Assembly (NCBI GenBank): GCA_964493415.1 | Contig: CAZBND010000003.1 | Location: forward strand, 90,229 to 154,228 | Source: an uncultured Planctomycetota bacterium | Lineage (GTDB): Bacteria > Planctomycetota > DG-23 > CAZBND01 | Length of the DNA stretch: 64,000 nucleotides | Direction: 5' to 3' | In this document: piece after piece, positions 6,499-61,340 of the stretch | Position numbering within the stretch: the first letter of the stretch is position 1 | Layout of the letters: the number at the start of each line of letters is the position of its first letter | The notes under the pieces: generated by a model | What the model saw: the letters and a program-made list of their open reading frames with translations, nothing else | The model's database searches: none | Told to the model about the DNA's origin: nothing | Position numbers and translations under genes: made by a program

Positions 6499-6507
6499 GA
6501 GGGGAAG

Positions 6508-8298: not shown

Positions 8299-8310
8299 TA
8301 CGAGGAAGGG

Positions 8311-20399: not shown

Positions 20400-20987
20400 T
20401 CAGGCAAGATGCCCCAGCTTCCGCCGTTTGGTTTCAAGGTAGCGGCAGTTCAGCTCGTGCTCGTCCACCCAGAGCGGCTCCCGCTCCACTTCCAATCCGC
20501 GCCCCTTGAGGCTGTCAAGCTTCGAGGGGTTATTGGTCAGCAGCCTAACCTTGCATATGCCTAGACTCTTCAATATCTCGGCCGCGAGCGTGAACTCCCT
20601 GTGATCCTTCTCGAAGCCGAGGGCTTTGTTGGCGTCCACCGTATCCAGCCCCGTATCCTGGAGCTGGTACGCCCGCAGCTTGTTCAGGAGCCCAACCCCG
20701 CGCCCTTCGTGGTTGTAAGCGTATATCAAGACCCCTAGCGGGGCTTTTCCGATCTTCTCCAAGCTTCTCGTCAGTTGCTTCCCGCAGTCGCATCGCAAGG
20801 AGTTGAACACGTCGCCGGTCAGGCAGGCGCTGTGGATCCTCACTAGGGCAGGGCGTTCCCCGTTCGGTTCACCGTTTACGAGCACCAGGTACTCTTCGTT
20901 ATTGAAGCCCCGGTAGCCGTGAACCGTAAAGGTTCCAAAGCGCGTCGGAAGCTTGCTTGTCGCAACTCGCTCTACCATGGCAGACAT
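20400..20987 (-). CDS. ribA: GTP cyclohydrolase II
   Basis: RibA motifs (RIHSACLTGD, Cys triad C-x2-C...C, NHEGRGVGL). ATG at 20987 verified; the longer ORF would run into the tRNA. Confidence 0.85.
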   Translation of the reverse strand: MSAMVERVATSKLPTRFGTFTVHGYRGFNNEEYLVLVNGEPNGERPALVRIHSACLTGDVFNSLRCDCGKQLTRSLEKIGKAPLGVLIYAYNHEGRGVGLLNKLRAYQLQDTGLDTVDANKALGFEKDHREFTLAAEILKSLGICKVRLLTNNPSKLDSLKGRGLEVEREPLWVDEHELNCRYLETKRRKLGHLA

Positions 20988-21116
20988 CCTTTCCGGCTCT
21001 CGCCGCCACTCCACAACGCTCAGCCCTCCAGGGAGTAATGGCGCTCCACTGAGGCGTTCTCCAGAGACGAGAATCGTAAGAGGAAGAGCAGTGAAAGCCG
21101 TTGCATAAGGTCCAGG

Positions 21117-21189
21117 TGGAGATAGCGGGATTCGAACCCGCGACCTCGGCAATGCGAGTGCCGCGCTCTCCCAACTGAGCTATATCCCC
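21117..21189 (-). tRNA. tRNA-Ala (anticodon CGC)
   Basis: Reverse complement GGGGATATAGCTCAGTTGGGAGAGCGCGGCACTCGCATTGCCGAGGTCGCGGGTTCGAATCCCGCTATCTCCA folds as a cloverleaf with a G3:U70 Ala identity pair and anticodon loop CTCGCAT. CCA not encoded. Confidence 0.85.
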
Positions 21190-29573: not shown

Positions 29574-31367
29574 ATGATCGAACGCAGCGCGGATGTCTTG
29601 GTAATTGGCGCGGGAGGCGCGGGCCTTCGCGCAGCGCTCGCCGCAAGAGAGCGAGGCGCAAGCGTGCTTCTAATGTGCAAGGGCAAGCTGGGCAAGGCGG
29701 GAGTCACCGCAACCGCCTGTTCGGACCGGATGGCCTTCCATGCGACCCTTCCTCATACGCCGCCGGGTGGGACAGACTCATGGCGGCATCACGCAGAAGA
29801 CATTTACAGGCTTGGCGGATTCGTCTCCGACGCCGACCTGGCCGAGGTGCTCGCGAAAAATGCCGCCGACGCCTTCGACTACCTCGACTCCCTTGGGGTT
29901 CCGTTTGCCAAGGACGCCCAGGGCAGAGCCTCGCAGTTCCTTACCGATGGATCTCGGTATCCGAGGGCCTGTTTCACGGGTCCTTACACGGCGAACCACA
30001 TCGAAGAGGCTCTCGTCAGGAGGCTACGCGAGACAGATATCGCCCTCCTCGAAGACATGACGGCCGTTGACCTCCTTTTGGATGATGGACATGCTTGCGG
30101 GGTGCTGGCCATCGACCCGAGCGGCAAGCCGGCCGTCGTAGGGGCGGGCGCTGTCGTATTGGCCACGGGTGGGGCGGGGGAGATGTATTCCGTCAACGTG
30201 TTCCCGCCGGGCATGACCGGCGACGGCTACGCCATGGCGCTAAGAGCCGGCGCGGAATTGGTTAACATGGAGTTCATCCAGATCGGGCTTTCTTCGGTAA
30301 AAACCAAGCTCGCCTGCTCCGGAAGCATGATGCGGGCCATTCCCAGATTTGTGAACGAGGGCGGTGAAGAGATCCTTCCCCGGTACATGCCCGAGGCAAC
30401 CCCCGACCATCTGGCCGACATTGTCTTCCGCAAGGGGGCGAGTTGGCCGGTCTCTCTGGAGCACGACACTCATGCGGTCGACGTCGCGGTTTTCAAAGAA
30501 GAAATGATCGCCGGAAGCCGTGTCTTCCTGGACTACTCCCGCAACCCCTCCGGCCTCGATCCCGAGAAGCTGGGGCGGGACCTGATGCGCCGGTACGCCG
30601 AAATCGGCGCCGAACTCATGGACGAGCCAGGGGTGACTCCTCTTCAGCGCATCCTGGGCATAAACAAGCAGGCCGTGCAATGGCTCAAGGAGCGGGGCGT
30701 TGACATACCCGGCGGAGACGCAGTCGAGATCGCCCCTGCGATCCAGCATTTCCAGGGCGGAATCAAGATCAGGCAGCGCGCCGACACTGTCGTTGAGGGC
30801 CTCTTCGCTGCCGGCGAAGCCGCCGGTGGCCAGCACGGGGCGAACAGACCGGGCGGCAACGCTCTTCTTGACAGCCAGGTGTTCGGCAAGATCGCCGGAG
30901 AATCGGCTGCGGACGCGGCCGCGAAGGCAAAGGTCATTGTCGACTCCCTGGCCGGCGAAGCGGAGAAATCCCCGAGCCGGCGTTGGTCCAAAGGCGTAGC
31001 CGCCTCCTCGGCGAGGGATACGGTCCGGAATCTGATGTCACGCTACGCCGGCATAGTCAGGACCGAGGACGGCCTTGGGAAAGCTTGCGCCCGGCTTGAC
31101 GAGCTTTCTGAGCGAGGGATAGCCGTCGAAGGCGGTGCTTTGCAGGAAGCCGCTGAAGCCGAGAACATGCTGTTGGTTGCCAGGAGCGTGATAAAGGGAG
31201 CGCTTCTTCGCAACGAAAGCCGCGGACCGCACTTGCGTTTCGAGTCCGAAGACGACGGCAAGCCTGTTCCCCGTCAAGAGGACAAGTGGTCCCGATATAT
31301 CGCGATCTCATCACGGGGCGGGGATATCGTAGCCGAGACCAGGGAGCCCATACGGCCTACCTGGTAG
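29574..31367 (+). CDS. FAD-binding flavoprotein of the succinate dehydrogenase/fumarate reductase/L-aspartate oxidase superfamily (function unknown)
   Basis: N-terminal GAGGAG dinucleotide fold, C-terminal R-x-ESRG-x-H-x-R motif. The active-site region does not match SdhA/NadB canonical residues. ATG at 29574 with a CAGGAGG RBS. Confidence 0.7.
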   Translation: MIERSADVLVIGAGGAGLRAALAARERGASVLLMCKGKLGKAGVTATACSDRMAFHATLPHTPPGGTDSWRHHAEDIYRLGGFVSDADLAEVLAKNAADAFDYLDSLGVPFAKDAQGRASQFLTDGSRYPRACFTGPYTANHIEEALVRRLRETDIALLEDMTAVDLLLDDGHACGVLAIDPSGKPAVVGAGAVVLATGGAGEMYSVNVFPPGMTGDGYAMALRAGAELVNMEFIQIGLSSVKTKLACSGSMMRAIPRFVNEGGEEILPRYMPEATPDHLADIVFRKGASWPVSLEHDTHAVDVAVFKEEMIAGSRVFLDYSRNPSGLDPEKLGRDLMRRYAEIGAELMDEPGVTPLQRILGINKQAVQWLKERGVDIPGGDAVEIAPAIQHFQGGIKIRQRADTVVEGLFAAGEAAGGQHGANRPGGNALLDSQVFGKIAGESAADAAAKAKVIVDSLAGEAEKSPSRRWSKGVAASSARDTVRNLMSRYAGIVRTEDGLGKACARLDELSERGIAVEGGALQEAAEAENMLLVARSVIKGALLRNESRGPHLRFESEDDGKPVPRQEDKWSRYIAISSRGGDIVAETREPIRPTW

Positions 31368-31427
31368 GCTTGTGTTTGCGCGTATGAAGTCAACAAGGCT
31401 TTTTCCCCGAAGTTGGGGGGCGGGCCC

Positions 31428-32198
31428 GTGAAGCTGGCCATATCCGGAAAGGGCGGCGTTGGCAAAACCACCATCGCGGCAGGGCTTTCACGCCGGTACA
31501 CTGCCAAGGGCTTCAGCGTCCTCGCCGTCGACGCAGACCCTGATGCAAATCTTGCTGGGGCGTTGGGTTATGACGGCGACATCACGCCCCTGAGTGAGAT
31601 GAAAGAGCTCATCGCCGAGCGCACCGGCGGACAGCCGGGCACTTACGGGGCTTTCGTGAAGCTTAACCCCGAAGTCGCGGACCTGCCCGATCGTCTGACG
31701 GTCGAAGTCCAGGGAGTCAAGGTTCTCACGCTGGGTGCTGTGAAGAGGGGAGGCGGCGGCTGCGCCTGCCCGGAGAATGTGTTGCTGAGGAACCTCCTCT
31801 CGCACCTGATCCTCAGACGGGACGAGCACGTAATAGTGGACATGGAGGCCGGCGTCGAGCATCTGGGTCGCGCCACTGTCCAGGCAGTGGATGCCCTCGC
31901 AGTGGTTGTCGAACCGTCTCAACGCAGCGCCGGAACCGCCTTTCGAATCCGAGAACTTGCACGGGAAATCGGGTTGGCGAACGTCCTGGCCATAGGCAGC
32001 AAGGTGAAAGGGCCGGAGGACCGGGGTTTTCTGGAAAGCCGACTCGAAGGGTTTCCAATTCTGGGCTGGATATCGTACAATGAACGGATCGTGCGGGCGG
32101 ACCAGGTAGGCGAGGGAAGTGCCCTGGACGCCCCGCTTTTTGTCAGGGAAATTGATGAGATAATCGGCCATCTCGTTCGCTATCAGTCGGACTCCTGA
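31428..32198 (+). CDS. cooC: CooC/AcsF-type Ni-insertion accessory ATPase (MinD/ParA family)
   Basis: Deviant Walker A GKGGVGKTT, CooC-like C-x-C (GGGCACPEN). GTG at 31428 after a G-rich SD; the ORF also opens at TTG 31413. Confidence 0.75.
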   Translation: MKLAISGKGGVGKTTIAAGLSRRYTAKGFSVLAVDADPDANLAGALGYDGDITPLSEMKELIAERTGGQPGTYGAFVKLNPEVADLPDRLTVEVQGVKVLTLGAVKRGGGGCACPENVLLRNLLSHLILRRDEHVIVDMEAGVEHLGRATVQAVDALAVVVEPSQRSAGTAFRIRELAREIGLANVLAIGSKVKGPEDRGFLESRLEGFPILGWISYNERIVRADQVGEGSALDAPLFVREIDEIIGHLVRYQSDS

Positions 32199-32260
32199 TC
32201 CAGCCGGACCGATTGCCGATCTTTGAAGGGACTTCGCGATAAGGCGGAAGGAGCGTCCTG

Positions 32261-34444
32261 ATGTCGAAAATCATCTGCAGCGCGGCCATCCGTGGGGCAC
32301 GCAAGCTCGTGAAGCGCGCCGAGGACAAGCTCGAAGAGGCCGTCAAAGCCAAAGGCGAAGAGTGCAAGGTCGAATTCCCCAATACCGGTTACTTCTTGCC
32401 CGTGATCTATGGCATCCTGGGTGAGCAGGTAGAGAAGCTGGTCGATATGAGGCCGATTCTTGAACGGGCAAAGGCGCTTCTCCCGCCGGAGCCGGACGAG
32501 AGCGCCTGGCTTCCCTACCTCGGCCAGGCTCTCGACGCGGGCATGGCGACGCTCTTCGCCGAAGAAATTATCGAGGCCTGCAAATACGTCGTCGGGCCCA
32601 ACCCGCTCGGCGAGTTGTGGCTAGGCGCTGCCGATGATGTGATCATGAGGGAGCGTGGCATTGAATTCGTCGATGGCACCGCCCCGGGATTTGCGGCCTG
32701 TGTCGGCGCCTGTCCCACTAACGAAATAGCCGTCAAGCTAGCCCGCGAGCTCCAGCAAAAAAGCCTCTACGTATTCATGTCCGCCTCCACTGACGGCAAG
32801 TGCATGGCCGAGCAGCTCGAAGAGGAAGGCGTTCAGATGGGCTGGGAGACGCGTCTCGTCCCGTTCGGCAAGGACATCTCCTCCACCATCTATTCGCTTG
32901 GCTTCGCCACCAGGGCCGCGCTTTCTTTCGGCGGCGTCCAGCCCGGCGATTACGTCAGGGCGCTCAGGTACAACAAGAACAGGATATTCGCCTTTGTTCT
33001 CGCGCTGGGGGAAGTTGACGACGAGAAATACGCTACCGCAGCGGGAGCCATCAACTACGGCTTTCCGGTGATCGCCGACACCGACATCCCCCAAATTCTC
33101 CCCACGGGCGTTTGCACTTACGAGCATGTCGTTTCCAGGGTTCCTCACGACAAGCTCGTGGAGAGAGCAATCGAGGTCCGGGGGCTCAAGATCAAGATCA
33201 CGGAGATACCGATACCCGTTCCGTACAGTCCCGCCTTCGAGGGCGAGAGGATTCGCAAAGAGCAGACCTACGTCGAGATGGGCGGGCAGAAGACCAAAGC
33301 CTTCGAGTGGGTGACCAGCAAGGACTCCTCCGTCGTCGAGGACGGAAAAGTCGAGATCATCGGGCCGGAGATCGACGAAGTCGAGGAAGGTGCCCAACTC
33401 CCGCTGGGCATCGTCGTAGAGGTGAGCGGCAGGAAGATGCAGCCGGACTTCGAGCCGATTCTGGAACGCCAGGTTCATACGTTCCTGAACGAGGCCCAGG
33501 GGATATTCCACATGGGCCAGCGCGACATCTCGTGGGTCAGGGTAAGCAAGGAGGCCCGCGAGGCCGGGCTGAAACTCGAACACTTCGGCAAAATCCTCCA
33601 CGCCCAGCTTCATACGAACTTCTCCGCCATCGTGGACAAGGTCCAGGTGAAAATCTACACCAAGGAAGAAGATGTTTCCGCCCTTCTGGAAAAGGCCAGA
33701 GAGGTATTTCTCCAGCGCGATGCGAGACTCGCCGGCATGACCGACGAATCGGTTGAAACCTTCTACTCGTGCACCCTCTGCCAGTCTTTCGCGCCCAATC
33801 ACGTCTGCGTCATCACTCCCGAGCGGCCGGGCCTTTGCGGAGCCTACAATTGGCTCGACGGCCGCGCCGCTTACGAAATAACCCCCTCCGGCCCTAACCA
33901 GCCTATCGAGAAGGGGGCCGTGATCGACGAGAAGCTGGGACAGTGGGAAAAGGTGAATCAGTTCGTCTACGAGAACTCGAACCGCACCATCGAGAAGTTC
34001 AGCGCCTACAGCATGATAAACGACCCGATGACGTCTTGCGGCTGTTTCGAGTGCATTTCGGTAATGCTTCCCATGGCCAACGGGATCATGATCGTGAACA
34101 GAGAGTTCCCCGACATGACGCCGTGCGGCATGAAATTCTCCACGCTCGCGGGCTCCGTCGGCGGCGGCAACCAGACGCCCGGCTTCGTCGGCCACAGCAA
34201 GCAGTACATCCATTCCAGGAAGTTCATCAGCGCCGACGGCGGGCTGGCGCGCGTCACCTGGATGCCGAAGGCGCTCAAGGAAGAGATAGGCGAGGCGGTA
34301 ACAAAGAGAGCGGCGGAAATGGGCCTGGGCGAAGACTTCCTTGACAAGGTCGCGGACGAGACTGCGGCCCAGACGGAGGAGGAAGTCCTTGAATTCATCA
34401 CCGGGAAGGAGCACCCCGCGCTCACGATGGACCCGATGTTCTGA
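32261..34444 (+). CDS. acsB: acetyl-CoA synthase catalytic subunit (CODH/ACS subunit AcsB / CdhC)
   Basis: Co-linear by eye with Moorella AcsB over the full ~727 aa, including A-cluster ligands (CGAYNWLD ... CGCFEC) and C-terminal HPALTMDP. Confidence 0.9.
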   Translation: MSKIICSAAIRGARKLVKRAEDKLEEAVKAKGEECKVEFPNTGYFLPVIYGILGEQVEKLVDMRPILERAKALLPPEPDESAWLPYLGQALDAGMATLFAEEIIEACKYVVGPNPLGELWLGAADDVIMRERGIEFVDGTAPGFAACVGACPTNEIAVKLARELQQKSLYVFMSASTDGKCMAEQLEEEGVQMGWETRLVPFGKDISSTIYSLGFATRAALSFGGVQPGDYVRALRYNKNRIFAFVLALGEVDDEKYATAAGAINYGFPVIADTDIPQILPTGVCTYEHVVSRVPHDKLVERAIEVRGLKIKITEIPIPVPYSPAFEGERIRKEQTYVEMGGQKTKAFEWVTSKDSSVVEDGKVEIIGPEIDEVEEGAQLPLGIVVEVSGRKMQPDFEPILERQVHTFLNEAQGIFHMGQRDISWVRVSKEAREAGLKLEHFGKILHAQLHTNFSAIVDKVQVKIYTKEEDVSALLEKAREVFLQRDARLAGMTDESVETFYSCTLCQSFAPNHVCVITPERPGLCGAYNWLDGRAAYEITPSGPNQPIEKGAVIDEKLGQWEKVNQFVYENSNRTIEKFSAYSMINDPMTSCGCFECISVMLPMANGIMIVNREFPDMTPCGMKFSTLAGSVGGGNQTPGFVGHSKQYIHSRKFISADGGLARVTWMPKALKEEIGEAVTKRAAEMGLGEDFLDKVADETAAQTEEEVLEFITGKEHPALTMDPMF

Positions 34445-34458
34445 AAGGGGAAGCGCAA

Positions 34459-35814
34459 ATGGCCCTCAGCGGATTGGAGATCTTCAAGCTCCTGCCCAAG
34501 ACGAACTGTCGAGACTGCGGCAGGCCCACCTGCCTTGCCTTCGCCATGCAGCTCGCCCAGAAGAAGGCTAACCTCAGCGACTGTCCACATGTCAGCGACG
34601 AGGCGAAGTCCGCGCTCGACGAAGCGTCCGCACCCCCAATCCGCGGAGTTACGATCGGAAGCGGCGATAGAGCCCTGAAGATGGGCGAAGAAACCGTTCT
34701 CTTCCGGCACGATGAGAAATTCTATAACCCCGCCGGAATAGCGGTCCGCGTCCGGGATACCCTATCGCCCGACGACCTTCGCGAGAAGTACAAGCGCATA
34801 CAGGCTCTCCGCTTCGTCAGGGTCGGGATGGACCTGGAGGTCGAGGCGGCGGCCGTCGAAAACGCTAGCGGCGAGGCCGCTAAATTCGAGGAGGCCGTCA
34901 AGATCGCCGCTGAAGAGACGGACCTCGTCCTCGTCCTGATGAGCGAGACGCCGGAGCACATCTGTCGCGCTCTCGAAGTTTGCGCAGATAAGCGCCCACT
35001 TATTCATGCTGCGACCAAGGACAACTGGAAGGAGATGGCCGCCCTCGCCAAGACGAAGTGCTGTCCTCTCGTAGTGCGTGCGCCGAGCCTTGAGGAACTG
35101 GCGGATCTTACCGGAAAGGTGACGGCCGAAGGAGTCGAGGACCTTGTGCTGGATTTCGTCTCCACAGACCCGAAAACACTACTGCAATCCCTGACGATGG
35201 CCCGCCGGGCGGCGCTCAAGAAGACTTTCAGGCAGCTCGGATATCCCTCAATCGCATTCACCGGCGTCGATGACCCCTTCGACGACAGCGCCCGCGCCTG
35301 CATGTTCATGGCCAAGTACGCGAGCCTGATCGTCGTCAACACTGACGAGCCATGGGCAATCCTTCCAATCCTCACCGTCAGACAGAATATCTTCACCGAC
35401 CCGCAGAAGCCCATTCAGGTCGAGCCCAAGCTCTACGCAGTCGGCGAGCCGGACTCCAAGTCGCCCGTGCTCTTCACTACGAACTTCTCCCTGACGTACT
35501 ACACCGTCGAAGGGGACGTCGAGGCCAGCCGCGTGCCCGCCCATATCCTCGTCGTCGATACCGAAGGCACCTCGGTTCTCACCGCCTACTCGGGGGACAA
35601 GCTCAGCGAGAAGACCGTGGCCAAGGCGATGAAGGACGCCAACCTCGAAAGCGTTGTCGGTCACAAGAAGATAATAATCCCCGGGTTGATCGCGGTAATG
35701 TCGGGGAAGCTCGAAGAAGAGTCCGGGTGGCAGGTCCTGGTCGGGCCTAGGGAGTCTTCCGCCATCCCGACGTATCTCAAGACGGTTTGGCCCAAAGAGA
35801 TCGAGGCCGCTTGA
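34459..35814 (+). CDS. acsC: corrinoid iron-sulfur protein large subunit (AcsC / CdhE)
   Basis: N-terminal 4Fe-4S motif CRDCGRPTCLAFAMQLA...SDCP. Co-linear with Moorella AcsC (~446 aa). Confidence 0.9.
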   Translation: MALSGLEIFKLLPKTNCRDCGRPTCLAFAMQLAQKKANLSDCPHVSDEAKSALDEASAPPIRGVTIGSGDRALKMGEETVLFRHDEKFYNPAGIAVRVRDTLSPDDLREKYKRIQALRFVRVGMDLEVEAAAVENASGEAAKFEEAVKIAAEETDLVLVLMSETPEHICRALEVCADKRPLIHAATKDNWKEMAALAKTKCCPLVVRAPSLEELADLTGKVTAEGVEDLVLDFVSTDPKTLLQSLTMARRAALKKTFRQLGYPSIAFTGVDDPFDDSARACMFMAKYASLIVVNTDEPWAILPILTVRQNIFTDPQKPIQVEPKLYAVGEPDSKSPVLFTTNFSLTYYTVEGDVEASRVPAHILVVDTEGTSVLTAYSGDKLSEKTVAKAMKDANLESVVGHKKIIIPGLIAVMSGKLEEESGWQVLVGPRESSAIPTYLKTVWPKEIEAA

Positions 35815-35892
35815 GGCCGCGTTCGCTGGGGAAATGACGAGGAGCGGCGGTCTCCGGTTGCTTGCTTCTCCATACGTTTTTCAAGAGGAACC

Positions 35893-36546
35893 ATGCGGCG
35901 GCTCCGCTACCGAATCAACCCGCACTCCCTGGGGGACCTGGCCGTATGGATATTCGTGGCGATGTTCTTCATGATGAATGCGGGCTCGGTCCCGGCGCAA
36001 TTCTTGTCCCCTTCTTCGACTCGGCTTCAGGGGCTTCAGTTGGTGGCTTTCGTGGGAGTCGGACTCCTCTTCCTGCTGCTTAGGAAGCTCATCAGCCGGG
36101 GCGTGAAGGCCGAGCTGGAGAGCGGCGGCCCCGGCCCCGTTGCTTTGGCTCACGCCGTTGCACTCGCGGTTTTTGGAGCTATGAGCATTCACGTCGTTTT
36201 CGTAGTGACGGCGGCGGTAGTCGTCGGCTGGGCCGCTGTTAGGTTGCCCGAGCTTGGTGTGCGGATTCTCGCTCCGGCCTTCAATTGGGCTCTCGCTCCT
36301 TTCGCTGCGGGCCTATGGGCGGGCTGGAGGGTGGGCTTCGCCGGCTGGGGCTTCGCGGCAGCGTCTTTCGCGTTGTTCCAGGGCATCTGGCTTGGGATTC
36401 CCGCATCAGTCGGCTGGACCGAGTGGCTTGACAATCAGGTTGTGATCGGCTTGGCGGCGGCCATACCTTTAGCGGCGGCAGGCGGCGCGCTCGGCTCCTC
36501 TCTCTTCGCCCGAAAGGCCTCCAGGGCGGACTCGGAATCCGCCTAG
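35893..36546 (+). CDS. hypothetical polytopic membrane protein (about 6 TM segments) embedded in the acs cluster
   Basis: Hydrophobic Ala/Gly/Trp-rich helices. No recognisable family. ATG verified. Confidence 0.45.
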   Translation: MRRLRYRINPHSLGDLAVWIFVAMFFMMNAGSVPAQFLSPSSTRLQGLQLVAFVGVGLLFLLLRKLISRGVKAELESGGPGPVALAHAVALAVFGAMSIHVVFVVTAAVVVGWAAVRLPELGVRILAPAFNWALAPFAAGLWAGWRVGFAGWGFAAASFALFQGIWLGIPASVGWTEWLDNQVVIGLAAAIPLAAAGGALGSSLFARKASRADSESA

Positions 36547-36562
36547 GAGTGGAACGTGTGAC

Positions 36563-38494
36563 ATGTTGGTCAAAGACCAGTGCAAGATTCATTTTGTCCC
36601 TTCCGGCCTTGAGGCTGACGTTCCGGCCGGCACCACCGTTCTCGAAGCCGCTCAAGGGCTGGGGGTCGCGATCAACAGCATCTGCGGCGGCGACGGCATC
36701 TGCGGGAAGTGCAAGGTGCAGGTCGTCCAGGGCAAAGTTGACACTCCTCCGACAATGCTGCTGAGTCGGGACGAGGTCCAGCGCAACTATGTGTTGGCCT
36801 GCCAAGCCAAGCTGGTCGAGGGAGACGTTGTCATAAACGTTCCCCAAGAGTCACGCTTGGCCGGAGGGCAGATACTGCTTGACCGCGACGCCGAGAGGCT
36901 CGCAGATATGGGCGGCGCATACCCTGCGGAAAGCAGGTTTCGACTCGACCCGCTTGTGAAGAAGTTCTATCTCGAACTCGACCCTCCCACCATCGACAAT
37001 AATCTGGCCGACCACGAAAGGGTCTATCAGGCTATACGCCGAAGCGAAAAGCGGTTCGCCCTGCAGACGGGCTTTGCGGCGCTTAAGGCGCTTCCGGGAA
37101 CACTCAGACAAGCCGATTGGAAGGTCACCGCGACAGTCGCCTGCAGGGGCGACATCGGGGAACTCGTCCAGGTCGAGCCCGGCGATACCTCCTCCAGGAA
37201 CTACGGTGTCGCCGTCGACGTCGGCACTACCACGGTCGTCGCCCACCTGGTCGACATGACTACTTCGAGAACGGTACATACCGAAGCCACGTATAATTCC
37301 CAGATCAAGTTCGGTGAAGACTACATCAGAAGGATCATGTACGCGGTGGAGAACGATGCGTTGGAGTTGTTGCAAAGCATTCTCGTAGACGACATCAACG
37401 ATCTCATCACCACGCTGGTGCAGCACAGCGGGGTCAGCCTTAACGACATAACAGCCGTGATGTGCTCCGGCAACACGGCCATGATCCATTTTCTGCTGGG
37501 CCTGGATCCGTCGTTGATTCGGAAAGACCCCTACATCCCAGTGGCGAACTTCATACCCCCGATTCGCGCGGCTCAGGTGGGAATTCGGATAAACTCCCGG
37601 GGACTGCTTTTCGTCCTGCCCAGCGTCGCCGCTTACGTGGGGAGCGACATAACCGCGGGAGTCCTGGTGCTGCGGCTCAATGAATCCGACGAGACATGCG
37701 CCTTCATCGACGTGGGAACCAACGGCGAAGTGGTAATAGGCAACAAGGACTGGATGGTCTGCTGCTCTGCCTCGGCAGGGCCGGCGTTCGAGGGCAGCGG
37801 GGTGAAAAACGGGATGCGAGCAAGCGCCGGGGCTATCGAACGTCTCGAAATCGCCGATGACTACAAAGTCCTCTACAGCACCATAGGAGACGAGCCGCCG
37901 CGAGGGATTTGCGGCTCCGGACTGATAGACTGCATCGCGGCGCTGAGAAAGGCCGGCGCAGTGGACAGGACGGGGCGCTTCGTTGCCGACATGCCGCCTG
38001 AAAAGCTGCGGCGCGAAGACGACGAAGCACAGTTCATTCTCGTGCCGGCAGGCAAGACGGCAACGGACTCCGAAATAGTCATCACCCAGGCGGACGTCAT
38101 GAACCTGATGCGCTCGAAGGGGGCTGTCTATGCCGCGATCAGCACCCTCTTGGACTCGGTTTCCCTCTCTGCCGCTGACCTGTCCCATCTCTACCTGGCC
38201 GGCGGCTTCGGGAACTACCTCGACGTCAACAACGCCATAATTGTCGGGATGCTCCCCGACATGCCCCGCGAGCGGGTCGTGTTCGTAGGCAACACGTCCG
38301 TAGCGGGCGCAAAGACCTCGCTGCTTTCCATCGAGGCGTTTCAGCAATCTGCAGCGATCGCCTCATCAATGACCTATTTCGATTTGATGGGGAACCCCAG
38401 CTACATGGACGAGTTCATCTCGGCCAATTTCCTTCCGCACACCGACATCGAAAAGTTCCCCTCTGTTGAAAAGGTACTCAGGAGGGTGGAGTGA
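36563..38494 (+). CDS. reductive activator of corrinoid Fe-S protein (RACo; 2Fe-2S ferredoxin domain + ASKHA ATPase)
   Basis: N-terminal plant-type ferredoxin motif (CGGDGICGKCKV) and C-terminal ASKHA-fold ATPase region. Length (~640 aa) and cluster context match RACo. Confidence 0.8.
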   Translation: MLVKDQCKIHFVPSGLEADVPAGTTVLEAAQGLGVAINSICGGDGICGKCKVQVVQGKVDTPPTMLLSRDEVQRNYVLACQAKLVEGDVVINVPQESRLAGGQILLDRDAERLADMGGAYPAESRFRLDPLVKKFYLELDPPTIDNNLADHERVYQAIRRSEKRFALQTGFAALKALPGTLRQADWKVTATVACRGDIGELVQVEPGDTSSRNYGVAVDVGTTTVVAHLVDMTTSRTVHTEATYNSQIKFGEDYIRRIMYAVENDALELLQSILVDDINDLITTLVQHSGVSLNDITAVMCSGNTAMIHFLLGLDPSLIRKDPYIPVANFIPPIRAAQVGIRINSRGLLFVLPSVAAYVGSDITAGVLVLRLNESDETCAFIDVGTNGEVVIGNKDWMVCCSASAGPAFEGSGVKNGMRASAGAIERLEIADDYKVLYSTIGDEPPRGICGSGLIDCIAALRKAGAVDRTGRFVADMPPEKLRREDDEAQFILVPAGKTATDSEIVITQADVMNLMRSKGAVYAAISTLLDSVSLSAADLSHLYLAGGFGNYLDVNNAIIVGMLPDMPRERVVFVGNTSVAGAKTSLLSIEAFQQSAAIASSMTYFDLMGNPSYMDEFISANFLPHTDIEKFPSVEKVLRRVE

Positions 38495-40344
38495 AGCTTC
38501 AGACTCGGATAGCGGGATCGTCCTGTTTATGCCTGTTGTTGGCGGCGGGTTTTGCCGCTGCTCCTGCGGATGCCGCCGTCCTTGACAGGCTGGGGGCGGT
38601 TCAGGACAAGGTGGCGGCCCTCAGGGGGCTCCACTTCAAGCAGCCGGTAGAGGCCAAGGTCGCCACCAAGACCGACGTGATCGTGCTGCTCATCGAAGAA
38701 CTTCACGAGCAGTTGACCCCGGAGGATTTTGAGAGCTTCGAGACCTCTTTCGAGAAGTTCGGCGTGCTTCCCCCAAATACCGATCTGTTGGCTCTTCTTG
38801 TCGGGCTCTACAGTGAAGAGGCGGCGGGGCTTTATGATCCCAGGGGAAAACGCCTTTGGGTGAATGAGGAGATCGCCGGCTTCTTCTCCGAGATAGCCCT
38901 CTCCCACGAGCTCACGCACGCCCTGCAGGACCAGCACTTCGACATAATGTCCATGCCTTTGATGGAAAAGGGAGAGGACGACCTCGTCCTCGCGACCAGC
39001 GCTCTGCTGGAGGGCGACGCCTCCATCTCGATGTTCCAATACTTTCTGGGAGACTCGGCGCTCGTGGACGAAGTCGTCGATGCCGGTGTGGCGGATATGA
39101 TGGATGCGATGCTGCCGGTCTACGGAGGCGCACTCGGGGACGCGCCGGGTCTGATCAAGGCCGTAGTTGTGTTCCCGTACACCTACGGCATGGAATTCGT
39201 TCAGGCGGTGAAGAGAATCGGGGGCTGGCAAGCCGTCAATCAGCTCTACCAAGTGCGTCCCATTTCGACAGAGCAGATACTGCATCCGGCGGAGAAGTTC
39301 CTGGACAACGACCCTCCCGTAAGCGTGGATTTGCCCGACCTTTCGCCCCTGCTGGGGGAAGAATGGAAAGCCCTGCCGGCGAACGTGCTGGGAGAGTTCC
39401 AGCTTCGCGTCGTGTTGGGGGAGCTGCTTGAAGATGCCGCCGCGGCAGAACTGGCCGCCGCTGGATGGGATGGCGACAGGTATAGGTGCTACAAGGGTCT
39501 CGATGGGGTCTTGCTGACCTGGGTTGCGCTTTGGGATACGGAGGAAGATGCCAAGGAGTTCTTTGCCGCGTACGGCCCCGTTCTCCGAAGCAAGTATCTG
39601 ACAGATACTGCGTCCGAGTCAAGGACGCCGGCTTCCTATACCGTCAGCGACGCCGGAAAAGTCTCGCGCATAAGCGTGAGAGGAAACCAAGCGGTCGTCG
39701 TGGAAAGCCTCCCCGCCGACCTCCTCTCGGAAGCTGAGGAATTGCTCTGGGAGGCTGGAGTCACCGAACTCCCCAAGGCTGATACCTCCAGGTTCACAGC
39801 GGGCCGGCATATTCCCGTGAGAGAAGTCTCTGCTCCGTGGCACGAGCCGAAGGGGAGGGTAGAGGGCGAGCGTTTCATCAGCGACGAGCTCGGCTTCGAG
39901 GTATCTCTGCCCGGCAGCGACTGGGCCTTCCTTGATGAGCTTCCGCAGCCCATGATGGCGGCGGGTATCGTCCACAAGGACCGCTATGCGGCAGTCAACA
40001 TTGTCGTTCCACCCTTCGGCGGCCTGCTTTCGGTGCGGCAGCTTGCGGAAATGGTAAAGGCCGGCCTGGGAGCATTGGGGGCGGACTCCAGCGTGATCGC
40101 AGAGGGTGTGACCGAGATCGGCGGGGAACAAGGCTATCAAGTCACTTCCGAGGTGACCATGTTTGGCACTGCTCAGAGAGTCCGCCAAGTGCTCGTCGAG
40201 CATGAGGGAAAGACGTTCATCATAACGTCAACCAGCGACTCGGCGGATTTCGATCTTCTCCTGGAAGAGATATTGTCCATGGAGCGGAGTTTCATTTTCC
40301 GCTCCGAAACGCATTCCCCTTCTGAGCAAGAGGCGGCAGAATGA
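38491..40344 (+). CDS. secreted HExxH-motif protein (putative zinc metallopeptidase, MA-clan-like)
   Basis: Signal peptide MKLQTRIAGSSCLCLLLAAGFAAAPADA. HELTHALQDQH zincin-like motif. 4-bp overlaps with both flanking genes (RACo stop, cooC2 start). Confidence 0.55.
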   Translation: MKLQTRIAGSSCLCLLLAAGFAAAPADAAVLDRLGAVQDKVAALRGLHFKQPVEAKVATKTDVIVLLIEELHEQLTPEDFESFETSFEKFGVLPPNTDLLALLVGLYSEEAAGLYDPRGKRLWVNEEIAGFFSEIALSHELTHALQDQHFDIMSMPLMEKGEDDLVLATSALLEGDASISMFQYFLGDSALVDEVVDAGVADMMDAMLPVYGGALGDAPGLIKAVVVFPYTYGMEFVQAVKRIGGWQAVNQLYQVRPISTEQILHPAEKFLDNDPPVSVDLPDLSPLLGEEWKALPANVLGEFQLRVVLGELLEDAAAAELAAAGWDGDRYRCYKGLDGVLLTWVALWDTEEDAKEFFAAYGPVLRSKYLTDTASESRTPASYTVSDAGKVSRISVRGNQAVVVESLPADLLSEAEELLWEAGVTELPKADTSRFTAGRHIPVREVSAPWHEPKGRVEGERFISDELGFEVSLPGSDWAFLDELPQPMMAAGIVHKDRYAAVNIVVPPFGGLLSVRQLAEMVKAGLGALGADSSVIAEGVTEIGGEQGYQVTSEVTMFGTAQRVRQVLVEHEGKTFIITSTSDSADFDLLLEEILSMERSFIFRSETHSPSEQEAAE

Positions 40345-41111
40345 GTTTCCGAATAGCGCTTTCCGGCAAGGGCGGCTCCGGCAAAACGACCATTGCGGCA
40401 CTCATGATCAAGGCTCTCACCGAGCAGAGCGACGGCGCTGTCCTTGCGGTCGATGCCGACCCGAACGCGACGCTGGCCATGGCCCTTGGCATAGAGCCCC
40501 GACGAACCATCTCCGACATGAGACAGGACATGATGGACAGGCGCATTGAAATCCCCGCCGGGGTCCCCAAGGAAAGGGTCTTCGAGTACAAGTTCCATGA
40601 GCTTGTCGACGAACACCCCGGCTTTGACTTCCTTTCCATGGGAAGGCCGGAAGGCCCGAAGTGCTACTGCTACGTGAATCACCTCTTGCGCAAGTACCTT
40701 GACCGGCTCTCGTCCGATTACGCGTACGTGGTAATTGATAACGAGGCCGGGATGGAGCATCTCTCTCGCCGGACCACCGACAGCGTGGACCTTCTTATCC
40801 TGGTCTCACAGCCCACGCTCGTAGGCCTGGAGTCAGTTCGCCGCATATCCGCCCTGGCGTCCACACTGCCCATCACCGTCAAGCGGCAGGAACTCGTTCT
40901 CAACATGGCAAAGGGCGGACATGCTTCTTCCGAGATCGTCGCGAGTGCCCGCGAGATGGGCTATGGGCCCTTTTTCTCGGTGCCATCCGACCCCCAGGTC
41001 GAGCAAGCCTGGGAAAAGGGGCTCTCCCTCCTTGAACTTACACCTGCGAGCCCGGCCTATGCCTCGGTGTCAGCAATGATCCGTGAACTCTTGTGCATTG
41101 GCGTTAATTGA
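40341..41111 (+). CDS. cooC: second CooC/AcsF-type Ni-insertion ATPase
   Basis: GKGGSGKTT deviant Walker A. MinD/ParA fold with the CooC-type Cys pair (CYCY). Confidence 0.75.
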   Translation: MSFRIALSGKGGSGKTTIAALMIKALTEQSDGAVLAVDADPNATLAMALGIEPRRTISDMRQDMMDRRIEIPAGVPKERVFEYKFHELVDEHPGFDFLSMGRPEGPKCYCYVNHLLRKYLDRLSSDYAYVVIDNEAGMEHLSRRTTDSVDLLILVSQPTLVGLESVRRISALASTLPITVKRQELVLNMAKGGHASSEIVASAREMGYGPFFSVPSDPQVEQAWEKGLSLLELTPASPAYASVSAMIRELLCIGVN

Positions 41112-41163
41112 TCTAGATTCTAACTAGGGAGCCTGTGGTCTTGGACTTGGACAGGAGGAGCCG

Positions 41164-41949
41164 ATGATAGCGGTTGGTGAGAGGATCAACGGGATGTACT
41201 CCGACGTTAAGAAGGCCATTCAAAAATCCGACCCGGTCCCTATCCAGGAACTCGCGAAAAGGCAGACAGAGGCGGGCGCGACTTTCTTGGACATCAACGT
41301 CGGTCCGGCCGCCGCCGATAAGGTGGCCGCCATGAGGTGGCTCGTCGAGGTCACTCAAGATGCGGTGGACACTCCTCTGTCAATCGACAGCCAGACCTTT
41401 GATGTCGTCCGCGCCGGCCTTGAAGCCTACAATGGCAAGGCTCTCATTAACAGCACAAAGGGCGACGCGGAACTGCTTCAGAAATACTTCGACTTGGCCG
41501 GTGAGTTCGACGCATCTTTGGTCGTTCTCACTATGGATGAGAGAGGAGTCCCCGCCAACACGGACACCAGGGTGGAGATCGCGGCCACCGCAGCGACAAT
41601 GGCCATGGAGGCCGGGTTCAACACCGACAGGCTTTACATCGATCCTATAGTGCTTCCCGTGAACGTGGCCCAGGATCAGCCGAGGTGCATCTTTGAGGCC
41701 ATCGACCAGATCAAAATCCTTTCCGACCCGCCCCCTCATGTGATAGTCGGGCTCAGCAATATCTCGCAGAGCACCAAAGAGCGGGAGCTCATCAACAGGA
41801 CCTTTCTCGTCATGGCGATAGCCGCCGGGCTCGACGCGGCAATCATGGACGTGCTGGACGACGACCTGATGGAGGCCGCCATCACGGCGGACATGATCCT
41901 TAACAAGCACATATACTGCGATTCGTTCCTCAAGGCGTACAGGAAGTAG
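41164..41949 (+). CDS. acsE: methyltetrahydrofolate:corrinoid/iron-sulfur protein methyltransferase (pterin-binding)
   Basis: Pterin-binding TIM barrel (GERINGM, INVGPA, LINST motifs). About 261 aa, as in Moorella AcsE. RBS GGAGG. Confidence 0.85.
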   Translation: MIAVGERINGMYSDVKKAIQKSDPVPIQELAKRQTEAGATFLDINVGPAAADKVAAMRWLVEVTQDAVDTPLSIDSQTFDVVRAGLEAYNGKALINSTKGDAELLQKYFDLAGEFDASLVVLTMDERGVPANTDTRVEIAATAATMAMEAGFNTDRLYIDPIVLPVNVAQDQPRCIFEAIDQIKILSDPPPHVIVGLSNISQSTKERELINRTFLVMAIAAGLDAAIMDVLDDDLMEAAITADMILNKHIYCDSFLKAYRK

Positions 41950-41968: not shown

Positions 41969-42736
41969 ATGAAGACTCTGATTCTTGTCCTCGTTGCCCT
42001 CGCCCTCACCCTCGCCCCTGTGGCCGCGGCCGGTAACCCGAAAGCGACACCCACGCCCGTCCCCGGCCAGCCCAAGATCGCCTCGCCCGAAGAGGCGAAA
42101 GCGGCCATAGCAGCCGTCAAAGAGGCGGAGGAGGAGAAGGAACTCCTCGCCGCAATCAAACGCTTGGGGGAGGTCTACTACCCCAAGAAGCCCCTGTCTA
42201 CGGTGGCATTTGCCCTTTCCATCGTGATGGATGAAAAGCGGAGCATGGAAGCCCGTGCCGGCGCCGCCGCCGTTCTCGGCAAGTTCCACGACAAGTCGGT
42301 CGTTCCCGCTCTCAGCAAGTATGTGATCAATCCGAACGTCAAAAGGGAAGTTCCCCTTTCCAGCGCCATCGCTACGGCCCTGGGCGAGATAGGTGACCCT
42401 GGAGCCATAAGCGCCCTGGAAAGGCTTGCCACCTACAAGGAAACCCCCGTGGCAGTGGCCTCAGCCAGAGCCCTCGGGAAAGTCAAACACAAGAAAGCTA
42501 TTGAGGAGCTAATCAAGATCCTGGATGTGACCGAGGACCCCGACGACGCGTCAAGCTCTCGCCAGAAGAGGTACGCTCAGATTGCGGCCGCCGCCAGGTT
42601 GTCGCTCGTAGCTCTTACCAAGGAGTCCTTCTTCTCCGCGACGGAATACAGAAAATGGTGGAAGGAGAACGAGAAGGATTTCAAATTCGAGCCGCCGAAG
42701 GTCACGCCGACCCCGGCCCCGGCGGCGAAGAGATAA
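41969..42736 (+). CDS. secreted HEAT/PBS-lyase-like repeat protein
   Basis: Signal peptide. Repeated VR..AA.ALG.IGDP.A...L motifs typical of HEAT_2/PBS lyase repeats. Confidence 0.55.
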   Translation: MKTLILVLVALALTLAPVAAAGNPKATPTPVPGQPKIASPEEAKAAIAAVKEAEEEKELLAAIKRLGEVYYPKKPLSTVAFALSIVMDEKRSMEARAGAAAVLGKFHDKSVVPALSKYVINPNVKREVPLSSAIATALGEIGDPGAISALERLATYKETPVAVASARALGKVKHKKAIEELIKILDVTEDPDDASSSRQKRYAQIAAAARLSLVALTKESFFSATEYRKWWKENEKDFKFEPPKVTPTPAPAAKR

Positions 42737-61026: not shown

Positions 61027-61340
61027 CTGTTGCTTCCCTTCGCCTTGACCGGCTCCTCGTGCGTGCCGGCGCAGACCAGGCGAATCTCGTTGCATTCGTC
61101 GCACCTCTCCACCGAATGGCGCGTGCTGAACTCCTCCCAGTGTTTCTTCTGGTTCGGGGTCAGGATGCCGGTTCCCCTGCACAGGGGGCATGCACTGTTC
61201 AAGGCCGAGAGCACCGCCGCGCGGATGAACTCCGAGCGATTCGGTATCCCTTCCAGCGCGTCGACGAACGCGCCGTCCGCCTTGAAAGTTATAATCTCGC
61301 GCTTGTTTTGTCTCATCGCCGGGCTCTCCTCCAGGTGCAA
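61023..61340 (-). CDS. ribbon-helix-helix (CopG-like) protein with C-terminal Cys4 zinc-ribbon; candidate metal-responsive regulator of znuACB
   Basis: N-terminal RHH pattern (KREIITFKADGAFVDALE...RSEFIRAAVLSAL) and C-terminal CPLC...CDEC. Translationally coupled to znuA. Confidence 0.5.
   Translation of the reverse strand: MHLEESPAMRQNKREIITFKADGAFVDALEGIPNRSEFIRAAVLSALNSACPLCRGTGILTPNQKKHWEEFSTRHSVERCDECNEIRLVCAGTHEEPVKAKGSNR

What the first reader, a model, noticed from the sequence alone, without database searches (positions are those of the whole stretch)
31428..41949. Acetyl-CoA synthase cluster without CODH (acsA) or CFeSP small subunit (acsD) in the window
The cluster encodes cooC, acsB, acsC, RACo, a second cooC and acsE, each recognisably co-linear with Moorella proteins. 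No CODH catalytic subunit or acsD-like TIM-barrel subunit lies in this 64 kb, although AcsC is normally an obligate heterodimer partner of AcsD. Two unrelated genes interrupt the cluster: a membrane protein (35893-36546) and a secreted HExxH protein (38491-40344). An SdhA/NadB-superfamily flavoprotein (29574-31367) sits directly upstream. ACS-without-CODH arrangements are known in organisms such as Dehalococcoides, where ACS runs in the acetyl-CoA-cleaving direction. This organism may use a similar incomplete Wood-Ljungdahl carbonyl branch.
Basis: partly seen in the sequence, partly recalled or inferred. Interest (0 to 1): 0.5.

Follow-up and report, generated by a model that had tools for sequence, protein, structure and literature searches.

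The report
Acetyl-CoA synthase operon missing two subunits
An uncultured Planctomycetota bacterium has an otherwise standard, strongly conserved acetyl-CoA synthase gene cluster with two normally essential genes (the CO dehydrogenase and the small corrinoid-protein subunit) cleanly removed, but these tools cannot show whether those genes sit elsewhere in the genome or are truly gone.

Summary
The window encodes cooC, acsB, acsC, a 217-aa membrane protein, RACo, a secreted HExxH protein (DUF8575), a second cooC and acsE. Pfam, tblastn and profile-HMM searches find no CODH or AcsD in 64 kb.

It is not an assembly artefact. At least six independent assemblies carry the same layout, and so do two sister species (AcsE 92% and 89% identical).

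Relatives have the order cooC-acsA-acsB-acsC-RACo-cooC-acsD-acsE. acsA adjoins acsB in 66 of 69 loci, and acsD precedes acsE in 44 of 44. The two genes were therefore excised cleanly, leaving 62-bp and 52-bp junctions.

The retained genes are canonical and strongly constrained. dN/dS is 0.03 for acsB, 0.05 for acsC and 0.04 for acsE, against 0.04 for DnaK. All metal ligands are intact.

My best reading (0.5) is a working ACS/CFeSP/methyltransferase module whose CODH and AcsD partners are encoded elsewhere. A CODH-free, Dehalococcoides-like acetyl-CoA-cleaving system is the main rival.

I could not test whole-genome absence.

One unexpected result is that natural strains carry deletion alleles inside acsC.

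The parts
29574..31367 (+). SdhA/TfrA/NadB-superfamily FAD flavoprotein (597 aa as called) with no adjacent Fe-S subunit. It lies directly upstream on the same strand, and this adjacency is conserved in the sister species.
   Evidence: Pfam FAD_binding_2 and Succ_DH_flav_C. The best NCBIfam hit is TfrA at 311 bits, far below the 718 cut-off. Gene calls. A weak hairpin lies at 31354-31370.
31428..32198 (+). cooC1, a CooC-type Ni-insertion ATPase. It is the ortholog of the copy that precedes acsA in relatives.
   Evidence: CbiA/AAA_31 domains. 44-58% identical to the acsA-linked cooC of relatives, against about 36% to the cooC2 copies. dN/dS is 0.12.
32199..32260 (.). 62-bp junction where acsA (about 1.9 kb) sits in 66 of 69 related loci.
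32261..34444 (+). acsB, acetyl-CoA synthase. It has all three domains, with the A-cluster ligands intact (C-x2-C-x8-C-x9-C and the C-G-C motif).
   Evidence: NF040764 at 1104 bits. Full-length alignment to PDB ACS chains at E=1e-218, with the cysteines and F229/F512 equivalents conserved. dN/dS is 0.03.
34459..35814 (+). acsC, the large subunit of the corrinoid iron-sulfur protein. It is full length and the N-terminal [4Fe-4S] cysteines are present.
   Evidence: PRK04165 at 603 bits. Aligns to residues 1-443 of 2H9A_A. Keeps 88 of 89 near-invariant positions. dN/dS is 0.05.
34998..35078 (.). 81-bp in-frame segment of acsC that is deleted in one assembled strain. Contigs from several other samples end at 34997 or 35078, or start at 35162.
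35306..35321 (.). 16-bp segment of acsC deleted in the same variant (JGI 3300029267). The deletion shifts the frame and creates an immediate stop codon.
   Evidence: The gene is split into 255 + 164 aa.
35893..36546 (+). 217-aa multi-helix membrane protein with no family match. It is specific to this genus and evolves fast.
   Evidence: Absent from all other loci. 47% identical between sister species, with dN/dS of 0.27-0.37.
36563..38494 (+). RACo/AcsV, the ATP-dependent reductive activator of the corrinoid protein.
   Evidence: Fer2 plus the RACo linker, middle and C-terminal domains. NF040756 at 624 bits. dN/dS is 0.06.
38491..40344 (+). Secreted HExxH protein (DUF8575, Hvo_1808-like). Its start and stop codons overlap those of its neighbours.
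   Evidence: Homologs occupy the same position, between RACo and cooC2, in L007, L133 and L177. dN/dS is 0.11-0.14.
40341..41111 (+). cooC2, a CooC/AcsF-type ATPase. It sits in the position of Moorella acsF (Moorella gene order from my own knowledge).
   Evidence: 41-51% identical to the cooC2 of relatives. dN/dS is 0.09-0.13.
41112..41163 (.). 52-bp junction where acsD (about 1 kb) sits in 44 of 44 related loci that contain acsE.
41164..41949 (+). acsE, the methyltetrahydrofolate:corrinoid/Fe-S protein methyltransferase.
   Evidence: PRK07535 at 284 bits against a cut-off of 259. Pterin_bind domain. dN/dS is 0.04.
41969..42736 (+). HEAT-repeat protein 19 bp downstream of acsE. Its position is conserved in the three species of the genus.
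   Evidence: Gene calls. dN/dS is 0.15-0.19.

Best explanation
This is a functional, evolutionarily stable acs operon of an uncultured Planctomycetota genus. Two genes have been cleanly excised from the ancestral cooC-acsA-acsB-acsC-RACo-cooC-acsD-acsE arrangement. acsA is also missing at the same junction in the closest related lineage, L007. acsD is missing only in this genus.

Shown:
- The retained proteins are canonical in sequence.
- They are as strongly constrained as DnaK.

Inferred:
- The proteins still do their standard jobs. AcsE moves a methyl group between methyl-tetrahydrofolate and the cobalt of the corrinoid iron-sulfur protein.
- RACo re-reduces the corrinoid protein when it becomes oxidised.
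- AcsB joins or splits methyl, CO and CoA at its Ni-Ni-[4Fe-4S] cluster.
- The two CooC-type ATPases load nickel.
- The missing partners (a Ni-CODH and the small corrinoid-protein subunit AcsD) are supplied from genes outside this 64-kb stretch.

On this reading the oddity is one of gene order, not of biochemistry.
For: (1) The retained genes are under strong purifying selection across three species that all lack acsA and acsD in the cluster. dN/dS is 0.03 for acsB, 0.05 for acsC, 0.04 for acsE and 0.06 for RACo, against 0.04 for DnaK.

(2) AcsC is indistinguishable from AcsC proteins that have an adjacent AcsD. It keeps 88 of 89 positions that are at least 95% conserved in 95 other AcsC sequences, and the one change is V to I. 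It is only 2.5 identity points more diverged than the AcsC of L007.

(3) All A-cluster ligands of AcsB are intact, as are the equivalents of CO-alcove residues F229 and F512 (PMC11321310). Its CODH-docking N-terminal domain is 79.5% identical between the window and L007, higher than the other two domains.

(4) cooC1, the ortholog of the acsA-linked maturase, is retained and constrained. L055 lacks acsA and also lacks cooC1.

(5) Split acs clusters and isolated acsD genes are common in Planctomycetota:
- L031 has acsA-acsB only, and L034 stops after acsC.
- L167 has RACo-cooC-acsD.
- L168-L170 have acsD alone beside metF-hdr.
- L179 has cooC-acsD-URO-D.
- L007 has acsD but no acsE in its cluster.
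Against: - No acsA or acsD could be assigned to this organism.
- Searches of the 5.8-billion-protein collection, in which this species is sampled at least 11 times, used two AcsD queries. Neither returned a multi-source cluster with the expected similarity to the L007 AcsD.
- The hits at 72-73% identity lie in standard cooC-acsD-acsE contexts and so belong to other organisms.
- acsD genes found away from the canonical cooC2-acsD-acsE run in the same samples belong to a different AcsD clade. A clade member sits beside an AcsB only 45% identical to this one, and their tetranucleotide signatures do not match the genus.
- Among 44 related loci, none has acsE without acsD immediately upstream, so relocation of acsD alone is rare.
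- Deletion alleles that inactivate acsC occur in natural strains. This hints that the corrinoid protein is dispensable at least some of the time.
Confidence: 0.5

Rival explanations
1. The genome truly has no CODH. [quoted passage not shown] CO is released or consumed by neighbouring organisms. AcsD may or may not be present elsewhere.
For: - acsA is missing at the same cooC1|acsB junction in the window genus and in the closest lineage, L007 (AcsB 75% identical). If that is one shared loss, ACS has been kept for a long time without a linked CODH.
- Two further Planctomycetota loci (L012, L055) also lack acsA beside acsB.
- The precedent is D. mccartyi, where AcsB plus AcsCD cleave acetyl-CoA and release CO (PMC7005905).
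- acsE is present here, which would complete the route to methyl-THF.
Against: - cooC1, which is orthologous to the CODH-linked maturase, is retained under selection.
- The CODH-docking N-terminal domain and the CO-alcove residues of AcsB are conserved.
- Dehalococcoides differs in key points: it keeps acsD and lacks acsE (PMC7005905).
- Genome-wide absence is untested.
Confidence: 0.27
2. The corrinoid iron-sulfur protein works without its small subunit. AcsC acts alone, or it uses another protein to cap the corrinoid. Candidates are AcsE, whose TIM barrel is related to that of AcsD, or the genus-specific HEAT-repeat or membrane proteins in the operon.
For: - acsD is absent from the operon in three species, while acsC stays under strong purifying selection (dN/dS 0.05).
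- No AcsD attributable to the genus was found in two large protein searches.
- Many AcsE homologs also hit the CdhD Pfam family that includes AcsD, so the folds are related.
- New genus-specific genes sit in the operon.
Against: - CFeSP is described as a gamma-delta heterodimer in all studied systems (PMC9782325). Structures 2H9A and 4DJD contain both chains.
- AcsC shows no clade-specific changes at conserved positions, which a new partner or solo function might be expected to cause.
- I did not test any interaction.
Confidence: 0.13
3. The cluster is a decaying remnant of a lost Wood-Ljungdahl pathway.
For: - Two core genes are gone.
- One assembled strain has an 81-bp and a 16-bp deletion inside acsC, in sequence that otherwise matches the window almost perfectly (100% over 11.1 kb on one side of the 81-bp deletion; one mismatch and one 1-bp indel in about 17 kb on the other).
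- Contigs from several samples break at the same points.
Against: - dN/dS of 0.03-0.06 for acsB, acsC, acsE and RACo over a synonymous divergence of about 1.
- All open reading frames are intact in three species.
- All metal ligands are conserved.
Confidence: 0.05

Closest known systems
Bacterial acs operon of acetogens and anammox Planctomycetota (Moorella type: cooC-acsA-acsB-acsC-RACo-acsF-acsD-acsE)
   Same: Gene order and orientation of all retained genes match. AcsB, AcsC, RACo and AcsE are full-length orthologs. The nearest AcsB sequences are from Planctomycetota, including Brocadia, Kuenenia and Scalindua, at 66-75% identity.
   Different: acsA and acsD are missing, with only 62-bp and 52-bp junctions left. 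Two extra genes are inserted: a membrane protein and a secreted DUF8575 HExxH protein. A flavoprotein lies upstream and a HEAT-repeat protein downstream.
Incomplete Wood-Ljungdahl pathway of Dehalococcoides mccartyi (AcsB plus AcsCD, no CODH)
   Same: An acsB without a linked CODH gene. It offers a possible acetyl-CoA-cleaving role for ACS (PMC7005905).
   Different: Dehalococcoides keeps both corrinoid-protein subunits and lacks acsE and metF, and the methyl group is proposed to go directly to a core-MetE (PMC7005905). Here acsE and RACo are present and acsD is the missing gene. Genome-wide absence of CODH is not shown here.
Monomeric ACS of Carboxydothermus hydrogenoformans (PDB 1RU3)
   Same: ACS can exist and be studied apart from CODH. 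The window AcsB aligns over its full length at E=1e-218.
   Different: To my knowledge that organism still encodes CODHs and a complete CFeSP. Its stand-alone ACS is a matter of protein state, not of gene loss.
L007 (uncultured Planctomycetota MAG SRP257756_co1_239), with L133 and L177
   Same: The AcsB of L007 is the closest found, at 75% identity. L007 shares the missing acsA. L007, L133 and L177 all carry the DUF8575 gene between RACo and cooC2.
   Different: All three keep acsD after cooC2. L007 instead lacks acsE and has clpP inserted between acsB and acsC.

Membership tests
Bacterial CODH/ACS (acs) operon | AcsB with an A-cluster binding motif and three domains | tested here: met
   NF040764 at 1104 bits against a cut-off of 800. 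The Cys motif CxxCx8Cx9C and the CGC motif are conserved in the alignment to PDB ACS.
Bacterial CODH/ACS (acs) operon | AcsA (Ni-CODH, Prismane family) encoded next to acsB | tested here: not met
   No PF03063 hit in any ORF tested. tblastn and the AcsA profile HMM find nothing in the window. The cooC1-acsB gap is 62 bp.
Bacterial CODH/ACS (acs) operon | AcsE methyltransferase, RACo activator and CooC/AcsF maturases | tested here: met
   PRK07535 at 284 bits against a cut-off of 259. Four RACo Pfam domains. Two CbiA-family CooC-type ATPases.
Corrinoid iron-sulfur protein (CFeSP heterodimer) | Large subunit AcsC with an N-terminal [4Fe-4S] motif, a TIM barrel and a corrinoid domain | tested here: met
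   PRK04165 at 603 bits. Aligns to residues 1-443 of 2H9A_A. Keeps 88 of 89 near-invariant positions.
Corrinoid iron-sulfur protein (CFeSP heterodimer) | Small subunit AcsD (CdhD-family TIM barrel of about 320 aa) | tested here: not met
   Not in the window and not in the clusters of the sister species. Presence elsewhere in the genome could not be tested.
Dehalococcoides-type incomplete Wood-Ljungdahl pathway | No CODH anywhere in the genome | not testable with these tools
   Only 64 kb plus at most 10-kb flanks are visible. The species is absent from the genome collection (best AcsB hit 75%).
Dehalococcoides-type incomplete Wood-Ljungdahl pathway | AcsC and AcsD both present; acsE absent | tested here: not met
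   acsE is present and acsD is absent in the cluster. The defining pattern is taken from PMC7005905.
Dehalococcoides-type incomplete Wood-Ljungdahl pathway | metF absent, with a core-MetE taking methyl from the corrinoid protein | not tested
   No metF, metE or metH lies in the window. The rest of the genome is not available.

The most novel reading that the evidence does not exclude
A genus of Planctomycetota maintains, under strong selection, an acetyl-CoA synthase system that has neither a CO dehydrogenase nor the small subunit of the corrinoid iron-sulfur protein. On this reading AcsC works alone, or is capped by AcsE or another operon protein. ACS then runs as a CODH-independent acetyl-CoA decarbonylase that feeds methyl-tetrahydrofolate.
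Probability: 0.12. Interest if true: 0.75.

Novelty: new variant of a known kind. Interest (0 to 1): 0.4.

Why it matters
CODH/ACS and its corrinoid protein are regarded as an ancient, tightly co-inherited enzyme set. In 44 of 44 related loci acsD sits beside acsE, and in 66 of 69 acsA sits beside acsB.

This genus keeps ACS, AcsC, AcsE and RACo as constrained as DnaK with neither partner in the operon, which makes it a natural experiment.

- If the partners are elsewhere, tight operon linkage is not needed. Pathway calls on metagenome-assembled genomes that rely on cluster completeness will then misjudge such organisms.
- If the partners are truly absent, this would extend the Dehalococcoides-type CODH-free use of ACS to another phylum.
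- Absence of AcsD in particular would be, to my knowledge, the first corrinoid iron-sulfur protein that works without its small subunit.

The acsC deletion alleles that appear to segregate in natural populations also offer a way to ask when the module is dispensable.

Tried and rejected
(1) Assembly artefact or split operon. Rejected: the layout is identical in at least six independent assemblies and in two sister species.

(2) acsD contigs outside the canonical cooC2-acsD-acsE run, from the same samples, as the missing gene. These were L135, L151, and the contigs carrying P0001 and P0007.
- They looked promising because they co-occur with each of the three species.
- Rejected because this AcsD clade travels with its own RACo (47% identical) and its own AcsB (45% identical).
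- Their tetranucleotide correlation to the genus is 0.83-0.90. Same-genome 20-kb chunks give at least 0.975, and orthologous sister-species contigs give 0.95-0.97.
- L135, at 2.5 kb, is too short to exclude by composition alone.

(3) AcsD candidates close to the L007 type (P0128, P0129, P0210). All lie in cooC-acsD contexts in other samples, so they belong to other organisms.

(4) Walking further along the 111-kb ENA contig, using window proteins near the window's end. This failed because neither protein as translated from the longest ORF was on record.

(5) Cross-species collapse as the cause of contig breaks inside acsC. Rejected: the sister species share no long identical stretch there.

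(6) Relaxed selection on AcsC or on the N-terminal domain of AcsB. Not seen.

(7) Promoter and terminator scans gave nothing above the shuffled expectation.

(8) Literature searches found no description of an acsD-less acs cluster or of this Planctomycetota lineage.

Full report
**What is there.**
- A CooC-type ATPase lies at 31428-32198.
- acsB lies at 32261-34444 (NF040764, 1104 bits, cut-off 800).
- acsC lies at 34459-35814 (PRK04165, 603 bits).
- A 217-aa protein of hydrophobic helices with no family match lies at 35893-36546.
- RACo/AcsV lies at 36563-38494, with all four RACo domains.
- A 617-aa protein with a signal-peptide-like N-terminus and a HELTH motif lies at 38491-40344. Its precomputed Pfam assignment is DUF8575, and it resembles the Hvo_1808 family at 134 bits, below that model's cut-off.
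- A second CooC-type ATPase lies at 40341-41111.
- acsE lies at 41164-41949 (PRK07535, 284 bits, cut-off 259).
- A HEAT-repeat protein lies at 41969-42736.
- An SdhA/TfrA/NadB-superfamily flavoprotein lies directly upstream at 29574-31367.

The rest of the window is ordinary bacterial housekeeping, including ribosomal protein S20, DnaK, a sigma-70 factor and MetG.

**Absence of acsA and acsD in the window.** Three independent tests agree.
- Pfam on 58 of the 59 long ORFs found no Prismane/CODH domain and no second CdhD-family protein.
- tblastn with AcsA and AcsD from the nearest relatives found nothing in 64 kb at E<=10.
- Unfiltered profile-HMM searches, using profiles built from 64 AcsA and 12 AcsD sequences of Planctomycetota relatives, were run against every six-frame ORF of 50 aa or more. 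They found nothing. The best AcsD 'hit' is the homologous barrel of AcsC at E=0.09.

**It is not an artefact.** The exact AcsB and AcsE proteins occur on contigs from ENA ERZ27256770 (111.8 kb), JGI 3300029267, 3300029258 and 3300017989, and Logan SRR14699969, SRR6963311 and SRR14699967. These contigs are 99.9-100% identical to the window and carry the same gene order.

**What the ancestral state was.** A scan of one genome per species with AcsB returned 80 loci, almost all labelled Planctomycetota (Phycisphaerae, Sedimentisphaerales, Brocadiia and others). The best match was 75% identical (L007), so the window's species is not in that collection.

Mapping the window proteins and AcsA/AcsD onto these loci shows one dominant order: cooC-acsA-acsB-acsC-RACo-cooC-acsD-acsE.
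- acsA abuts or lies within 1 kb of acsB in 66 of 69 loci with enough upstream sequence. The exceptions are L007, L012 and L055.
- acsD lies immediately upstream of acsE in 44 of 44 loci (with L008, L068 and L071 re-read).

In the window the corresponding gaps are 62 bp and 52 bp, so both genes were removed cleanly from a conserved operon.

- L007 lacks acsA at the same junction. It keeps acsD, lacks acsE, and has clpP inserted between acsB and acsC.
- L133 and L177 also keep acsD.

The simplest reading is that the acsA excision is older and shared with the L007 lineage, and that the acsD excision is specific to the window's genus.

**Conservation within a genus.** A protein search with AcsE found two sister species at 92% and 89% identity. 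Their contigs are up to 94 kb and 283 kb long. They carry the identical layout, from the flavoprotein through cooC1, acsB, acsC, a small membrane protein, RACo, DUF8575, cooC2, acsE, HEAT, YjbQ, HAD, DUF4292 and LolA to DnaK, with every reading frame intact.

Pairwise dN/dS values against both sister species are listed below. Synonymous divergence is about 0.8-2.0.

| Gene | dN/dS |
|---|---|
| acsB | 0.03 |
| acsC | 0.05-0.06 |
| acsE | 0.04 |
| RACo | 0.06 |
| cooC1 | 0.12 |
| cooC2 | 0.09-0.13 |
| DUF8575 | 0.11-0.14 |
| 217-aa membrane protein | 0.27-0.37 |
| DnaK | 0.04 |

The core acs genes have therefore been kept under housekeeping-grade constraint since the two genes left the operon. 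This rules out a decaying relic at genus level.

**Are the retained proteins altered?** They are not.
- AcsB keeps all A-cluster cysteines and the Cys-Gly-Cys motif.
- It also keeps the equivalents of F229 and F512. These are walls of the CO alcove that is needed for productive CO binding and autotrophic growth (PMC11321310).
- The N-terminal domain of AcsB docks CODH and carries the gas channel (PMC9782325; PMC11321310). It is the most conserved of the three domains in all lineages compared, the window included, and is 79.5% identical between the window and L007.
- AcsC keeps the N-terminal [4Fe-4S] cysteines and aligns end to end with the large subunit in structure 2H9A.
- AcsC matches 88 of 89 positions that are at least 95% conserved in 95 other AcsC sequences. 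The single change is V411I.
- It is only 2.5 identity points more diverged from outgroups than the AcsC of L007, which still has acsD beside it.
- cooC1 is orthologous to the cooC that precedes acsA in relatives. L055, which lacks acsA, lacks that cooC too.

**Search for the missing genes elsewhere.** This could not be settled.
- acsD genes away from the canonical cooC2-acsD-acsE run exist in the same sampling projects, and even in the same samples, as each of the three species. They are L135 and L151, P0007 beside a metF-mvhD-hdr cluster, and P0001 after a RACo-cooC pair.
- That AcsD clade has its own RACo (47% identical) and, in L171, its own AcsB (45% identical).
- Its contigs have tetranucleotide correlations of 0.83-0.90 with the sister-species contigs. 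Same-genome 20-kb chunks give at least 0.975. I assign them to other, co-occurring Planctomycetota.
- The hits most like the L007 AcsD (72-73%) lie in normal cooC-acsD-acsE contexts. No multi-source cluster with the expected fingerprint appears among hits of 68% identity or more.
- Attempts to read further along the 111-kb ENA contig failed, and the look-up caps are now exhausted.

These results lower, but do not remove, the chance that an acsD of the expected lineage exists in the genome.

**Best explanation and rivals.** The retained subunits look exactly like partner-dependent subunits. The CODH-type maturase is kept. Split acs clusters and isolated acsD genes are demonstrably common in this phylum.

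For these reasons I favour, at 0.5, a canonical ACS/CFeSP/methyltransferase module whose CODH and AcsD are encoded outside the operon. The steps of the mechanism are inferred from the families, not shown here.
- AcsE transfers methyl between methyl-THF and Co(I).
- RACo re-reduces Co(II).
- AcsB condenses or cleaves methyl, CO and CoA.
- The CooC-type proteins insert nickel.

The rivals are as follows.
- The main rival (0.27) is a genome with no CODH, in which ACS cleaves acetyl-CoA as in Dehalococcoides (PMC7005905). That organism keeps AcsD and lacks AcsE, so this would be a different variant of the idea.
- A corrinoid protein that works without AcsD (0.13) is the most novel reading. It is supported only by the failure to find acsD and by the constraint on acsC.
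- A decaying remnant (0.05) is contradicted.

**An unexpected observation.** The JGI 3300029267 contig matches the window almost perfectly over about 28 kb (100% over 11.1 kb on one side of the first deletion; one mismatch and one 1-bp indel in about 17 kb on the other), except for two deletions inside acsC.
- The first is 81 bp, in frame, at 34998-35078. It removes 27 residues of the TIM-barrel domain.
- The second is 16 bp, at 35306-35321. It shifts the frame and creates an immediate stop.

Contigs from four other assemblies end exactly at 34997 or 35078. Three right-hand contigs all start at 35162. No long stretch shared with the sister species explains these breaks. Strain-level structural variants of acsC therefore appear to co-exist in several samples, and at least one of them is null.

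How this fits with the strong long-term constraint on acsC is unexplained. Conditional dispensability is one possibility.

**Verdict.** The finding is real and unusual as a gene arrangement. It is a new variant of a known system. Its biochemical meaning depends on a whole-genome check that these tools could not make.

Noticed in passing
window 34998-35078, 35306-35321, and the break point at 35161/35162 (inside acsC): One assembled strain (JGI 3300029267) carries an 81-bp in-frame deletion and a 16-bp frameshift deletion in acsC, in sequence that otherwise matches the window almost perfectly (one mismatch and one 1-bp indel in about 28 kb). Contigs from at least five other assemblies end or start exactly at 34997, 35078 or 35162. 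This suggests that acsC structural variants segregate in natural populations, despite a dN/dS of 0.05 at genus level.
   Followed up: partly
window 38491-40344; L007 12254-14383; L133 about 3640-4750; L177 547-2568: A secreted HExxH protein (DUF8575, Hvo_1808-like) holds the same position between RACo and cooC2 in the window genus and in three more distant lineages. In the window its start and stop codons overlap those of its neighbours. It evolves fast (35-38% identity where AcsB is 75%) but is constrained within the genus (dN/dS 0.11-0.14). I see no reason why a secreted metallopeptidase-like protein should be kept inside a cytoplasmic acs operon.
   Followed up: partly
L168, L169, L170 (acsD at 10001-10984 in L168): In a co-occurring high-GC Planctomycetota lineage, acsD stands alone beside a divergently oriented metF-mvhD(FlpD)-DUF5981-dsrC-hdrCB-hdrA cluster. 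Other lineages have RACo-cooC-acsD (L167) or cooC-acsD-URO-D (L179). Scattered acs genes therefore seem common in this phylum.
   Followed up: partly
window 29574-31367 and 4745-8880: A stand-alone TfrA/SdhA-like flavoprotein with no Fe-S subunit sits directly upstream of the acs operon, and this adjacency is conserved in the sister species. Elsewhere in the window lies a run of aconitase-family large and small subunits, malate/lactate dehydrogenase, and class I fumarase alpha and beta subunits. Together these could form a reductive branch from oxaloacetate to succinate. I did not test this.
   Followed up: no
window 18050-19729 (-) and 20400-21152 (-): A HAD-hydrolase domain is fused to CofD (2-phospho-L-lactate transferase), next to a GTP cyclohydrolase II gene. 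This points to F420-type deazaflavin cofactor synthesis in a Planctomycetota genome.
   Followed up: no
window 9957-10946 (+): A URO-D family protein of the MtaA/MtbA-like corrinoid methyltransferase fold. A member of the same family follows a cooC-acsD pair in another Planctomycetota lineage (L179 9037-10245).
   Followed up: no
window 58456-63545 (-); L007 1844-3865: A large DUF6785/DUF6784 protein lies next to ZnuA and an ABC-3 permease. A homolog of the DUF6785/DUF6784 protein also lies about 2 kb upstream of the acs cluster in L007.
   Followed up: no
window 1158-2492 (-): An unusual fusion: an N-terminal HATPase_c_2 (anti-sigma-factor kinase-like) domain joined to a C-terminal DHODB-type Fe-S cluster binding domain.
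   Followed up: no
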